The position numbers and the translations under genes were made by a program. The notes beneath the pieces were generated by a model that saw nothing but the letters and a program-made list of their open reading frames with translations, had not been told where the DNA came from and did no database searches. A stretch of DNA of 59,007 nucleotides, counting the filler, from Platydemus manokwari (Eukaryota): assembly GCA_037951405.1 (NCBI GenBank). It is 6 parts of 6 records of this genome, joined end to end, with 100 filler letters (N's around TTAATTAATTAA, not from the genome) between each part and the next. Parts side by side here need not be neighbours in the genome. Positions count along the whole stretch, not along the records: positions 20,345 to 29,280 come from JBBMOY011326428.1; 5 more parts are not named here. One strand, given 5' to 3'. This document shows positions 23,316 to 29,143 of this stretch, piece by piece (positions within the stretch are counted from its first letter, which is position 1; each line of letters begins with the position of its first letter).

Positions 23316-23722
23316 ATGTTGAAAATTGTGAATACAATAATTGTTCTTATCGGTTTTATAAATGAAATCAATTGTGTAATCAATGGTATTATAACTCTAT
23401 ATTCCTGTGTCAGTACTTGTAACGCTGCATATGCAAAATTCAATAGTTGGTTGGAATATCTTGCAGGTATTTATTTCATTTGTATTTATTATCGGTTTGA
23501 CAAATTGATTCAATGAGTATCTGAGGTTTGGAAATGTTTATTTTATTAATATTTTTGTTTGGGAAAATGAAGAAAATCTTTGAGCAATTTAAATTCATTT
23601 TTGCAGGACCTTTCCCATCTTGTGTCGTAATTCCTGGTGTAGTTGTTGCTTGCTCTACTACTCAAGAGGCCTGTATAGCTGCATGTGCCGAGGCGATAAT
23701 CAGTTCGATATACATGTTTTGA
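23316..23722 (+). CDS. Small secreted cysteine-rich protein A, 88 aa; exons 23316-23466 and 23607-23722
   Basis: MLKIVNTIIVLIGFINEINC-VINGIITLYSCVSTCNAAYAKFNSWLEYLAG|PFPSCVVIPGVVVACSTTQEACIAACAEAIISSIYMF; phase-1 GT-AG intron; paralogue at 28711-29143. Confidence 0.78.
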
Positions 23723-24599
23723 CTTTCACTAACTATGTCATTCAGAAACTTCATAAATTCCTTTATTTTTATATTGTATTTGCATTTGTTATTAAATTGA
23801 TATTTATTTGTAAATTTATTAGTGACTTGTTTTTGATAAATTTATATGTTGTAATTGCAAATGTTTGGTAATTGTTAATCATGTCGATGATGAAAATAAA
23901 TGGAATAACTTGCACACTAAATATAAAATATTGTAATTTTTAATGTATGCCGAATTTCACGATAACTTATCATCATAAAATAAGAAAAATTTTCAATTAA
24001 AAAATAAATATATTATCATTATATTTCCATTATATTAATAAAATCAAACAAATATTAAAAAAACTATTTTTATCAAATCACATTTTATTTTATTTCTGGT
24101 TTTCCTAAGAGTTATTATAAACAAATATTTTTGGGATTTTAATGTGAATATCGTTGTAAAGGTGGTTAATGATGAAAATAAATAGAATATATCGACATTA
24201 AATGTTGTCAACAAACCTGAAGTAGTTCAATAATTCATAAAATCCGAAATTCACTGGTTTTTCGACATTCGATTAAAACTAGGCTGTTAGTATAATTTAT
24301 AATAAAAAATTTTTATAATTAAAATGATCATGGTTGAGAACCGTAATATCATATGGTAACAAGTGATAGGGATAACTATAAACCTGAGACTTCTGAAACT
24401 ATTGTATGTAAATTGTTAGATTCAGTATAATTTATACGAACGATCTATGAATCTAACAACGCTCGATGAATTCAACAAATAATGTTGATTATTTAGAATA
24501 TTTTTAACGGTTTTTTTGTGGCGATTACCTTCTAATTACTTTAAAAAATAAAATCAAAATATTTATAATAACCTTAGAATCAAGTTTCACCATTTATAG

Positions 24600-26600
24600 C
24601 AAGAATGCTTTGAGGAGAAGAAACGGTTCAAACACCTAGCTGCTCTCAATGAACAATGCAATATGATGACGACTTGTGTCTGACGTGTATGAATAATAAT
24701 CAAGCACATCTAATTGGCAAGCACATTTATATAACCACACCTACAGAGGTATTAATTCAGGCCTTTCCAATATTAGAGAAGTTATTGGAACGCACGAATA
24801 CATATCGAATTGAGGCCCAATTATTATTACAAATTTATGATTGACTGCACGGAGCAACTCATTGGGACAATCTACCGTCACTGTATGTAACTACACCACA
24901 GAGTATGGTAACTGGATTAAAAAATATCCCTGCTTTATCAAAGCAAACCGAGTAAGACAATGTATTAAACACAATAAACTCATAAAGGAACCTTTCACCA
25001 TCACAATTTGGGAAAACCTCGTCAATGACGGCGAATGTCTGGACACAGTATGTGTATTAATCAATGACAGTGAATCACAGTTATAAGGGAACCATAACCA
25101 GAAGAAGATCAGGTAAATAATCACCTCGAGGAACCTCTACAAACGGAAACTCAAGAAACCAATTGAAGAAGAAATCAAATCAAAATTTATTGTTGATTTA
25201 GATGTACAATCATTAACCATTCCAAACGTAAATAGAAGAAATTCGTGAAGGGGACAATCAAATAAATCCACCGCCCTACCCATACCCAAACCCGAGGTTC
25301 AGTCAACATTGAGAAAATGGCTAACATAATCAGCGCAAATGTTTCAATTATGTCTGATTATGAAATACAAAATTAATAAAAACCCTAATGCAAAAGTTGA
25401 AAGACAAACAAGGACTATCAAAATATCCGAAAAAATGGATGTATGTAGAGAAATACTCAATTCATTTGCAAACCTCGACACTGATCAAATCAACCAGCTC
25501 ATTATTACAAAAATATCAGTAAAATAATAATAACTGATCAATTAATTCGCAAATGGAAATCACATGACAACTGCACACCTGGAACACACAAGGTCCATTA
25601 CTCTCACCTAAAGTCACTTGATCCAAAAGGAATACTTCTGGAATCATTGTTCATCAAAATTATCACTAGTATTGAGACAGATCGAGATAATTATTCCAAC
25701 ATCTCAAACTGGAGACCAATCGCTTTGTCCAACTCCAACTACACACTATTCACCGGAATACTTGGGTGATCATTTACTACATTGAATCGCCCGGGAGAGA
25801 AAGACGGAAAGAAATATGAGGGTTGTATTGAGCACAATGCCCATTTGAATGCCATCTTTGAAGAACATAGGAGAACCGAAATGCCCACAGCAATAGCTTA
25901 GCTTGATATAAAAAATTCTTTTTCAAGTGTACCGCATGGACTAATGCTTGAAATTCTAAAAAACATGGCATTAATATTGACTTTCTGGATATTATTAAGG
26001 ATATCTGCTCAAATGTTTCAACACACTACAAATGTATGACCACAATTACAAACGAAATTCTATTAAATATTGGAGTAAATCAAGGATGTCCACTGTCGAT
26101 GATCCTAAAACCCCTAGTCTTTAATCCGTTCATTACAGCAATGGAAGCTGTCAAAGTCCCACATTATCAATTATTCAACGAGAAAATCAGAGTTCTCACA
26201 TGGGCACACGACATTGCCATCTTTACAAATAATTCAGTAAATCTCCAAATCATTATCGATGTCGCTACAAGTACTGCATTAAAATACATTTTAATATTCC
26301 AACTGCAAAAATGCGCGTTCATATATCCACCATATAAAAATTTCGTGTCAAAAATGTTACAATTAATCAACTACCGATAAAGAAACTAAATATTGAAGTA
26401 TTCTATCAATACCTTGGTGTATCAGTGGGATTCCAGGTAGATCAAACACCATATGACACTCTACTGAATTCTATAAAATTTAAAAAGCATCACTAACTCG
26501 AATCCGATGGATTTTCAAAAGATTCATGGAATCATTGCATATTATAAAATTTAACTTGGAGAACTTTTCATTCGCTAACTCGAATTTAGAATCAATATAA
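24600..26600 (+). mobile_element. Degenerate R2/NeSL-group non-LTR retrotransposon (RT region, 3'-truncated)
   Basis: SNWRPIALSNSNYTLF, EGCIEHN, LDIKNSFSSVPH, IGVNQGCPLS, WAHD (YADD position), KC, YQYLGV. The 5' boundary is approximate. Confidence 0.82.
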
Positions 26601-27529
26601 AGCCTTATAAATGCTAATTGTGGAGTAATACATTTGTAAACATGCCTATTATATTAATAAATTAAATTAATAATAAATGATGATATATGAAATTCAAATT
26701 AACAATTTAAATTTAAATCATTATATTATTGATTTTTCATAATTTATAAATATTTAATTAGATGATAAATATTAAAATGGTAGTGTTATCTCAATGAAAT
26801 ATGATTTTGTTTGTACTTTTCAAATCTACATTAAATAGTACTTTGATGCATTGCAAAATATAATTGTAAATTGAGATTGCAGACAGTAATTATTTAGTAT
26901 TAATAAAAATTTAATAATATGAATAAAAATAAATGATTTTTAGTAAATTACATTTTCTATGACATTTAATGGAACAACTATTCTTTTGGGATAAGCGGAT
27001 AACACTCTAGTTTGCTTATTTTCCCGATTCATATCACGAATATGATCGAACACCATATTGTAAATAGATATCGTAAGATCCACCATATAAATAGGATTAT
27101 ATATATGAAAAATAATATTTCATTATTTCATCGAATTAGTTTGGTCATTCTAAATAATAAATTAAATTTAATAATAAATCAAATAAATATAAAAAATTAA
27201 AATATTCTAATATTCGTTAATTTGTTCTTGAGAGAGAAAAATTAATGAAACACAATAACAATTCAAGATTTTTAACCAATTCAATCACTAGTGTAGAAAT
27301 TTGCTTTATTGAAAAGTCCACCACAACACAAGACTGGCGTTCTTTATTAACACTTAATTCGTGTTTATGAATTTATTATCTTAAATCGATATTTAAAAAA
27401 GGTTTTTTAATAGTTTTAATTAAATGATTTTTGCTTTAATATTTATACTTGAATTATCGTGAATGAGTTGTTTTTTCCAGTAAAATACTGGGCATATTTG
27501 GACTTATGATTTCCGACACAGAATGATCT

Positions 27530-27940
27530 TCTTCCGTGCTACCTTAATCGCAAAATCGTGTTCAATCTCAGAGTGCAGAACAATTACTTTTTAAATCTGT
27601 CTACATATTCTGTCAGTGGGAATGGTGACTGCTGCCTTATAAAGGTAACGATGATTCATATGTAGAAATTGTACGATCATAATATAATGTCGGGCATTAT
27701 TCATATTAGAATTTATTTATCGTCAGGAGAAATTGCCTCTGATTAAATTTAATATTATTCACCCTCTCCATCAATTCTGCTCAATAACAGGTGGCAATTT
27801 AAAGAAAAACTTTGAGATTTAAAATCTCCTGCTCTCATTTTATAAGAATCTTTCATTGTTTTTGATTGGACAAATTATTCGAGTATGATGCAGGATTGTT
27901 GTTGTAATATGTTGGGGACTCAAGAAATAATATTGATTAT
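27530..27940 (+). pseudogene. Possible decayed OTU-like peptidase fragment
   Basis: YSVSGNGDCCL resembles the OTU V.GDGNC motif; later a frameshifted WG/TQEI. Confidence 0.2.
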
Positions 27941-28710
27941 TTAGAATATTCTTCTCATTACTTTTAAAAAATATATTCAAAATATTTATAATAACATTTG
28001 TAAGAATTTAAACTATTTATCTTCAATTAATTTACTTAAATATTAAATAAAAAAATATAATAATCACTAACATTGCCGATTGTTGATAGATCTGTTGCTG
28101 TAAACAATTCAATAACGATTGTCTGAAAAATAAAACAATTGTACGTTACAGACTTACTTATGTATTCGGATAATGTTTGTACTATGATCCAGTACTTTTT
28201 CCTGTTCACAATAGTATAAAGTTTATTTCAATATTATCTTATCAAATAATAATATCAAGCTAATTATTAAAAATTATTTTTTCGCATTTTACGTGTTTTG
28301 TCGGTGTTTATTTTCTTGATAAGCTCCAAATATTTCGACTAATTTCTTATCACAACAAAATGTGCAATTTTATCACTATTTCATTTATTCAAATAATTAT
28401 TAGCCATTATATAAACCAATTTTAATAAAGAATTTTAAATTTTCGAATATATTAATTAATATTATTTATATATATATATATATATAAATTGATATTATGA
28501 TTCATTTAATTAAATATTTCATTAAAATATTATAAATGAATATATCGTATATATAAAACAAAGTATAAAATCTAAGGAAATTATATTTTAGAATATATTT
28601 TAAACAAAACCAAATACCAATTTATCAGTAACATATTTGCAAATAATTAAAATGGCTACAATTAAATGACATTCAATATAACTCAGCACAAGCTCTGGTT
28701 TTCAAAAATA

Positions 28711-29143
28711 TCAATTTTTTTCTGAAGTGCAAAATTCTGATGAACATTTCTCTGCACAGGTATTCATTGCAATAACACAAGCAATCTTCATTGGAGCCGC
28801 TAAGATATTCCATGTCAAATATCCTGGAAAACAAAATTCTTTAATCTTTATTATCAAATCTAAATAATATAAATAATTTTCCTAATTGGTTGTAAAACGT
28901 AATAAATATAATATTTCTGAAGAAAACAAATATCGATTTATTCAAAGCTTTATACCACTGTATCATATAAATATCACAATGAATTTGTATAAATAATATA
29001 CCTGCTATGGAATCTGCCAATGGATTACAACCCATTGTTACTGTTCCACAACCTATGTAACATGTAATACATTTCACGTTACCACAATTAATCTGGTTTA
29101 GTAAACAGAAAACCAGAAATAGTGATAAACTTGTTTTTGTCAT
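28711..29143 (-). CDS. Small secreted cysteine-rich protein B, 84 aa; exons 29002-29143 and 28711-28823
   Basis: MTKTSLSLFLVFCLLNQINC-GNVKCITCYIGCGTVTMGCNPLADSIAG|YLTWNILAAPMKIACVIAMNTCAEKCSSEFCTSEKN; same phase-1 intron after GCA G as protein A. Confidence 0.8.

What the first reader, a model, noticed from the sequence alone, without database searches (positions are those of the whole stretch)
23316..29143. Pair of divergent secreted CX3CX6C...CX6CX3C peptides hidden by splicing
Seen: two convergent two-exon genes (88 and 84 aa), both leaders ending N[EQ]INC, an identical phase-1 intron position, and mirror-image Cys spacing, with almost no other identity. Gene A has Phe at the third Cys position and an extra Cys in exon 2; gene B adds an outer Cys pair. 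Inference: a disulfide-laddered helical hairpin with a hydrophobic loop. The spacing recalls poorly characterised proteins annotated 'zygote-specific class V copy B'. Rapid divergence suggests a defence, toxin, mucus or recognition family.
Basis: partly seen in the sequence, partly recalled or inferred. Interest (0 to 1): 0.7.

Follow-up and report, generated by a model that had tools for sequence, protein, structure and literature searches.

The report
Fast-diverged flatworm hairpin loop peptides
Two predicted two-exon genes, likely from a flatworm, encode small cysteine-laddered peptides that are very diverged relatives of a recently named but untested eukaryotic family (hairpin loop peptides), and they likely act as secreted membrane-binding defence rods.

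Summary
Both gene models give 88- and 84-residue products with a phase-1 GT-AG intron in the same codon and mirror CX3CX6C-X23-CX6CX3C spacing. None of 40 shuffled windows gave a comparable model. Both align without gaps over 74 residues to the family UniRef calls 'Zygote-specific protein', named Hairpin Loop Peptides (HLPs) in 2026 (PMC13357843). HLPs are predicted antimicrobial rods with three nested disulfides; none has been tested. A and B are extreme outliers: 34-37% identical to their nearest sampled relative and 17% to each other. A swaps one core Cys for a loop Cys; B adds two Cys and eight charged residues. Both carry an intron not seen at that position in sampled members, and they share a loop motif with cnidarian and Macrostomum HLPs. 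One DNA run shows further A-like copies, some broken. A marker on another piece of the assembly points to a non-neodermatan flatworm. Splicing, secretion and function remain untested. The scan's earlier notes showed no HLP on other DNA. Verdict: new variant of a known kind, moderate interest.

The parts
23316..23466 (+). Gene A exon 1: predicted 20-aa leader ending NEINC, first helix with C31, C35 and Phe42 in place of the third Cys
   Evidence: identical contig in run X1 over 23347-23493
23467..23606 (+). Gene A intron, 140 nt, phase 1, GT-AG, inside the Gly codon that matches family position 28 (predicted, no transcript)
   Evidence: GC 0.24 against 0.29 and 0.45 in the exons
23607..23722 (+). 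Gene A exon 2: loop with extra C56, second helix with C66, C73, C77, stop codon
   Evidence: exon 2 folded alone gives helix from P60 to I86 with C56 in coil, pLDDT 71.6
24700..26600 (+). Decayed, multi-copy non-LTR retrotransposon remnant (reverse-transcriptase fragment) between the two genes; limits approximate; not part of the genes
   Evidence: RVT_1 E=3.8e-6 at 25952-26377; stops in frame 1; high summed depth in X1
28711..28823 (-). Gene B exon 2: loop, second helix with C63, C70, C74, charged tail with extra C79, stop codon
28824..29001 (-). Gene B intron, 178 nt, phase 1, GT-AG, same codon as in A (predicted; a junction shifted by 24 nt is possible)
   Evidence: GC 0.19 against 0.34 and 0.35
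29002..29143 (-). Gene B exon 1: predicted 20-aa leader ending NQINC, first helix with extra C25 and core C28, C32, C39
20345..29280 (.). The single 8,936-nt assembly piece that holds both genes, bounded by artificial N-TTAATTAATTAA-N linkers; B starts 137 nt from its end, so the cluster may continue

Best explanation
Two predicted two-exon paralogues encode very diverged relatives of the Hairpin Loop Peptide ('Zygote-specific protein') family, which are likely exported, predicted to fold as disulfide-stapled two-helix rods, and likely bind or insert into foreign lipid membranes as surface defence peptides of what is probably a flatworm. Shown: the reading frames, splice signals, Cys spacing and gapless match to the family. 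Inferred: (1) the 20-aa leader is cut after INC, leaving an even number of Cys (6 in A, 8 in B); (2) nested bonds C28-C74, C32-C70, C39-C63 in B and C31-C77, C35-C73 in A, where C66, orphaned by Phe42, would pair with the new loop C56, and B's C25-C79 would close the open end only if the tail unwinds; (3) the hydrophobic loop end enters membranes; (4) the copies turn over by duplication and loss. About 0.9 that they descend from HLPs, about 0.8 that they are spliced and secreted as modelled, about 0.5 that membrane-directed defence is the job.
For: Profile of 79 family members from metagenomes: B 25.5 bits, A 10.1 bits, both gapless over 74 residues. With all Cys held in place, 2 of 500 shuffles reach B's mature score and 7 of 500 reach A's (1 and 13 of 500 on the full-length profile); 0 of 500 full shuffles do. 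Loop length is 23, inside the family's 21-24. The family stand-in L217 folds at pLDDT 92.5 as a two-helix hairpin, as in the published model. Core Cys and Phe42 lie within 20 degrees of one helical face. A's GRAVY of 1.05 and loop hydropathy of 1.11 match the family (1.13, 1.14). Terminal branches are 2.3 and 2.2 against a family median of 0.11. Run X1 holds at least three other A-like pieces, one with 7 amino-acid-changing differences and a lost donor, one with an 8-nt insertion. The HLP paper predicts antimicrobial activity by software only.
Against: No transcript, proteomic or activity data exist for A or B, and none for any HLP in the papers seen. Net charge is -2 (A) and 0 (B), unlike cationic antimicrobial peptides. 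B is much more polar than the family (GRAVY 0.45 against a minimum of 0.81; 8 charged residues against at most 3 in 80 members). A's score alone would be insignificant at database scale. The 7 of 7 replacement changes are expected 18% of the time without selection. The full hairpin was modelled for a stand-in, not for A or B. The family set was pulled with a recalled motif and is biased to one subtype.
Confidence: 0.45

Rival explanations
1. Same ancestry and fold, but a structural role: hydrophobic rods that coat or cross-link a surface such as cocoon, eggshell, mucus or adhesive, in the manner of hydrophobins.
For: The family label comes from algal zygote expression (UniRef name; the original Chlamydomonas paper is recalled, not seen). 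The family is uncharged and very hydrophobic. Extra Cys in A and B could form inter-chain links. A Daphnia gene with this label is induced by acute hypoxia, not by infection (PMC9548574, one table passage).
Against: Extreme divergence between two neighbouring paralogues and broken sister copies fit a conflict-driven family better than a structural one.
Confidence: 0.22
2. A receptor-directed ligand: a prey or predator toxin like nemertean B-IV, or a mating or recognition signal, with the variable helix faces carrying specificity.
For: B-IV is a disulfide-cross-linked helical hairpin with eight Cys from a worm (PMC6410017 passages; its similar Cys spacing is recalled). B has eight Cys and gained charged residues. 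The X1 copy's changes cluster at the start of helix 1.
Against: The family profile finds no B-IV or other solved toxin by sequence (2 weak thanatin hits among 177,635 sequences). B-IV activity needs Arg17 and Arg25, and A and B have no Arg in the mature part. A and B match HLPs beyond their Cys.
Confidence: 0.2
3. Relaxed or dying genes: A in particular is on its way to a pseudogene, and the odd Cys pattern is decay.
For: A lacks a Cys that is invariant in 78 of 78 aligned members. Sister copies in X1 have a dead donor or a frameshift. The piece is full of transposon debris.
Against: Both frames are open, and leaders, splice sites and intron phase are intact despite only 17% mutual identity. 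A's loss of one Cys is matched by gain of another, keeping the count even.
Confidence: 0.13

Closest known systems
Hairpin Loop Peptides, HLP (Zhu, Knoll, Wang, Pelosi 2026, PMC13357843) = UniRef 'Zygote-specific protein'; no Pfam or NCBIfam model
   Same: About 85 aa with leader; CX3CX6C-X21-24-CX6CX3C; Gly seven residues before the first core Cys; Gly nine residues after the third; hydrophobic loop; gapless alignment; small tandem clusters.
   Different: 34-37% identity to the nearest of 79 sampled members, against a mean of 63% inside the set. No Gly-Pro start or terminal Pro. A has five of six core Cys plus a loop Cys. B has two extra Cys and eight charged residues. Both have an intron at codon 28; 101 of 117 pattern matches have both halves in one frame and the two loop introns found lie at codons 24 and 31.
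Animal 'A-G' subtype of HLP (Macrostomum lignano, cnidarians, Trichoplax, Hypsibius, Medioppia; supplement S10/S11 of PMC13357843)
   Same: Ala-Gly at third Cys +8/+9 and a 14-residue stretch to the fourth Cys, as in A and B. Read by eye in 10 of 10 cnidarian and 3 of 3 Macrostomum entries; absent from 80 of 80 metagenome members and 120 of 120 database hits. Macrostomum entries also have a longer N-terminus, like A.
   Different: Those entries stay conserved (six Cys, uncharged). The subtype also occurs outside animals (Rhizoctonia, Chlorella, Perkinsus entries), so it does not prove vertical descent. The comparison was by eye, not computed.
Nemertean neurotoxin B-IV / beta-nemertides (PMC6410017)
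   Same: Worm-secreted helical hairpin cross-linked by disulfides; eight Cys like gene B.
   Different: No sequence match; activity rests on Arg residues that A and B lack; analogy of fold only.
Plant alpha-hairpinins (as described in PMC13357843)
   Same: Mirror-symmetric nested disulfides between two helices.
   Different: Four Cys, about 40 residues, strongly polar (GRAVY -1.8 in the paper's Table 1).

Membership tests
HLP / Zygote-specific protein | About 85 residues including the leader | tested here: met
   88 and 84 aa
HLP / Zygote-specific protein | Detectable homology to the family profile beyond Cys spacing | tested here: met
   Gapless 74-residue alignments; Cys-fixed shuffles reach the score in 1-2 of 500 (B) and 3-13 of 500 (A), by profile and setting
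HLP / Zygote-specific protein | Six mirror-symmetric Cys, gene B | tested here: met
   C28, C32, C39 / C63, C70, C74, plus two extra
HLP / Zygote-specific protein | Six mirror-symmetric Cys, gene A | tested here: not met
   Phe42 at the third position, also read in X1 contigs; extra C56
HLP / Zygote-specific protein | Mature chain starts Gly-Pro and ends near a Pro (most members) | tested here: not met
   Gly is kept (G21 in B, G24 in A); both Pro are absent. The paper's own supplement lists members without Gly-Pro.
HLP / Zygote-specific protein | Very hydrophobic, at most two charged residues | tested here: not met
   A has GRAVY 1.05 but 4 charged residues; B has GRAVY 0.45 and 8 charged; 79 of 80 family members have 2 or fewer
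HLP / Zygote-specific protein | Cleaved signal peptide of 15-20 residues | tested here: inconclusive
   Hydrophobic 20-aa leaders align with the family leaders; no signal-peptide predictor was available
HLP / Zygote-specific protein | Two helices joined by a loop, nested disulfides | tested here: inconclusive
   Met for the stand-in L217 and for the helix of A's exon 2 alone; the whole A or B chain was not folded and the tool reports no bonds
HLP / Zygote-specific protein | Antimicrobial activity (predicted only for the family) | not testable with these tools
   No experiment in PMC13357843
Nemertean B-toxins (B-IV) | Sequence homology to B-IV | tested here: inconclusive
   The family profile lists no such chain at E up to 10 among solved structures; fold searches list only generic helix pairs
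Nemertean B-toxins (B-IV) | Essential Arg residues on the first helix | tested here: not met
   No Arg in mature A or B; requirement from PMC6410017

The most novel reading that the evidence does not exclude
HLPs are an old animal gene family whose fast-evolving, intron-bearing descendants fall below BLAST detection, so their patchy spread, read in print as repeated transfer from fungi, is partly a search artefact. In this flatworm the family has become a hypervariable birth-and-death defence or recognition repertoire with rewired disulfide ladders.
Probability: 0.3. Interest if true: 0.65.

Novelty: new variant of a known kind. Interest (0 to 1): 0.42.

Why it matters
HLPs are described as rigid, conserved, uncharged six-Cys rods whose scattered animal members came from fungi by gene transfer. 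These two genes show the scaffold can drift to about 35% identity, gain charge, move or add cysteines and carry an intron. At 10-25 bits such members would be missed by a default BLAST census (inference), which weakens absence-based arguments for transfer. They are also natural variants for asking which features an HLP needs. The function of the whole family is still open, which limits the score.

Tried and rejected
No RNA holder was listed for 23200-29250, which is no evidence on expression; the one run, X1, behaves as DNA. No whole genome is held, so no genome-wide census or dN/dS. A database search with B's unspliced frame found 4 candidates and no hit. Atlas: B exon 1 gave three 'cysteine-rich protein' clusters at 0.78-0.79, a lead only; A exon 2 gave nothing. 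Pfam: nothing above cut-off for the four exons or 57 family members; NCBIfam gave only weak unrelated matches (E 0.013 or worse) for 78 members. Fold searches with the stand-in: no match at E 0.001 in PDB or BFVD, best Z 5.9 of 48,161 chains, all generic helix pairs. Viral contigs: a spacing-only pattern gave 120 loci, none an HLP by eye; two family-specific scans gave none. Prokaryote genomes: 2 full matches among 25 candidates, on contigs of 437 and 3,337 nt, the longer with sparse, short ORFs; likely contamination. Tetranucleotide comparison of the six pieces was uninformative. An IQ-TREE run timed out and FastTree was used instead. No inverted repeat links A and B. A mixed alignment of exons with one family member misaligned and was dropped. 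The representative-protein search and the complex predictor were not available (queues full), so near relatives of A and B and the pairing of A's two helices are untested. Papers seen as passages and of no use: PMC9832785, PMC6313938, PMC7494827, bioRxiv 2025.01.09.632098 (0 mentions of hairpin or zygote).
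Full report
Observation. Both gene models are in the sequence as described. A runs + 23316-23466/23607-23722 (88 aa) and B runs - 29143-29002/28823-28711 (84 aa). Each has one phase-1 GT-AG intron that splits the same Gly codon. Core Cys are 28, 32, 39 / 63, 70, 74 in B and 31, 35, (Phe42) / 66, 73, 77 in A, with 23 residues between the halves; A adds C56 and B adds C25 and C79. Enumerating every two-exon model in the window gave 120 candidates, 91 from other start codons. 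The best of those scored 3.0 bits on the family profile, against 25.5 (B) and 10.1 (A), and 0 of 40 shuffled windows reached 10.1. No RNA run was listed, so the junctions are predictions; a B junction shifted by 24 nt scores nearly as well.

Setting. The window is six pieces of 9-10 kb joined by artificial linkers. A and B share one 8,936-nt piece with a decayed reverse-transcriptase element between them. An exosome component 10 gene on another piece has parasitic flatworms as best hits (55-58% identity). In a tree with 59 of the 120 listed hits it is sister to the 13 neodermatan sequences, with FastTree support 0.997; no named free-living flatworm was among the hits. The host is therefore likely a flatworm outside Neodermata, but this holds for the assembly and is not physically linked to A and B. 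All six pieces have GC 0.27-0.31.

Family. These gave 117 open matches, 102 distinct. The 79 complete ones with a leader and a 21-24-residue loop built the profile; radical-SAM look-alikes, cut, intron-split and odd-loop rows were dropped. A and B align to it without gaps over 74 residues. With Cys fixed, 2 of 500 shuffles reach B's mature score and 7 of 500 reach A's; on the full-length profile the counts are 1 and 13; full shuffles reach it in 0 of 500. An alignment of 57 members finds 1,711 database clusters, and many named hits carry the UniRef label 'Zygote-specific protein'. There is no Pfam, NCBIfam or solved-structure match. The family was named Hairpin Loop Peptides in 2026 (PMC13357843: main text parts 1-4 of 7 and supplement parts 34-36 of 36 read; preprint seen as passages). 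That paper describes about 85 aa, a signal peptide, six mirror Cys, three nested disulfides, hydrophobic uncharged rods, antimicrobial activity predicted by software only, and animal copies ascribed to transfer from fungi. Its main text never mentions introns or flatworms, but its supplement lists three conserved Macrostomum members. Searches for 'zygote-specific class V' (2 papers), 'zygote-specific protein' with cysteine (5), PTHR37475 (0) and 'hairpin loop peptide' (2 relevant of 4) showed no functional study. Subscription journals, and supplement parts 1-33, were not read.

How A and B differ. Nearest identities are 34% (A) and 37% (B), against a mean of 63% inside the set (300 random pairs) and 17% between A and B. 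Terminal branches are 2.3 and 2.2 against a median of 0.11 among 83 members. A and B group together in 86 of 99 bootstrap trees, which long-branch attraction could also cause; the shared leader end and intron position are the better evidence of common origin. Charged residues number 4 and 8, against 0-1 in 77 of 80 members. Both have Ala-Gly at third Cys +8/+9, absent from 80 of 80 metagenome members (a motif-biased set) and 120 of 120 database hits. By eye it is present in 10 of 10 cnidarian and 3 of 3 Macrostomum entries of the supplement, and in some non-animal entries. The intron lies at family codon 28; 101 of 117 matches have both halves in one frame, and the two loop introns found are at codons 24 and 31 (the pattern excludes introns before codon 24). 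The aphid and Daphnia ranges in the paper's tables are about 250 nt, consistent with single exons.

Other copies. Contigs of DNA run X1 match A exactly over 23347-23493 and 23532-23700, including the Phe42 and Cys56 codons. They also show a 151-nt piece with 9 differences (8 listed: 7 coding, all changing the residue, plus loss of the donor G), a 217-nt piece with 18 differences, a 15-nt intron deletion and an 8-nt exon insertion, and a 91-nt piece 15 letters off in the leader region. Alleles and paralogues cannot be told apart, X1 may be the assembly's source, and 7 of 7 replacement changes has probability 0.18 without selection. B was not examined at this resolution.

Mechanism. The family stand-in folds as helix 2-22, loop, helix 37-58 at pLDDT 92.5, and A's exon 2 alone gives a helix from P60 to I86 with C56 in coil. 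Fold searches return only generic helix pairs. Transferred by alignment, B keeps three nested bonds and may add a fourth if its tail unwinds, since C79 is off the Cys face. A keeps two, and its orphan C66 would most simply pair with the new C56; cutting the leader after INC leaves an even Cys count in both. I commit to a secreted rod whose hydrophobic loop end binds or enters foreign membranes in surface defence (0.45). Rivals are a structural coating (0.22), a receptor-directed toxin or signal like nemertean B-IV (0.20; PMC6410017 passages) and decay (0.13). Neutral to acidic charge argues against a classical cationic antimicrobial mechanism.

Verdict. Real genes, clearly of HLP descent, but failing several of the family's stated traits (six Cys in A, low charge, Gly-Pro start), so they are filed as a new variant rather than plain members. 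The scan's earlier notes showed no HLP. Interest 0.42.

Noticed in passing
window 9836-9935, 20245-20344, 29281-29380, 39688-39787, 49347-49446: Five artificial linkers (44 N, TTAATTAATTAA, 44 N) join six pieces, so gene order across them means nothing.
   Followed up: yes
window 1067-2770 (+): Exosome component 10 (Rrp6) gene with a long exon; places the assembly next to neodermatan flatworms.
   Followed up: yes
window 41576-48762 (-): Large ATM/ATR-like kinase gene, including an open frame of 1,543 codons at 42423-47054; only a weak HEAT_ATR match (E=0.007) on a downstream exon, the name is otherwise my reading.
   Followed up: no
window 13507-14100 (-): Ulp1-type protease fragment (Peptidase_C48, E=6.6e-5); earlier notes on this genome describe such domains as transposon-borne.
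   Followed up: no
window 4902-5435 (-): UBX-domain gene fragment.
   Followed up: no
window 21797-22304: 40-nt inverted repeat (93%) around 428 nt, like a small non-autonomous DNA transposon upstream of gene A.
   Followed up: no
L023:190-654 (-), viral contig: Predicted secreted, charged protein with the same CX3CX6C-X23-CX6CX3C spacing and further Cys, no likeness to HLPs by eye; possibly an independent disulfide hairpin.
   Followed up: no
L243:66-248 and L244:443-703: Canonical HLP genes on tiny contigs of two bacterial assemblies; likely eukaryotic contamination.
   Followed up: partly
L185, L188, L192, L230: HLP variants with a much longer (39-40) or shorter (15) loop; L185, L188 and L192 are the nearest neighbours of A and B in the tree.
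   Followed up: partly
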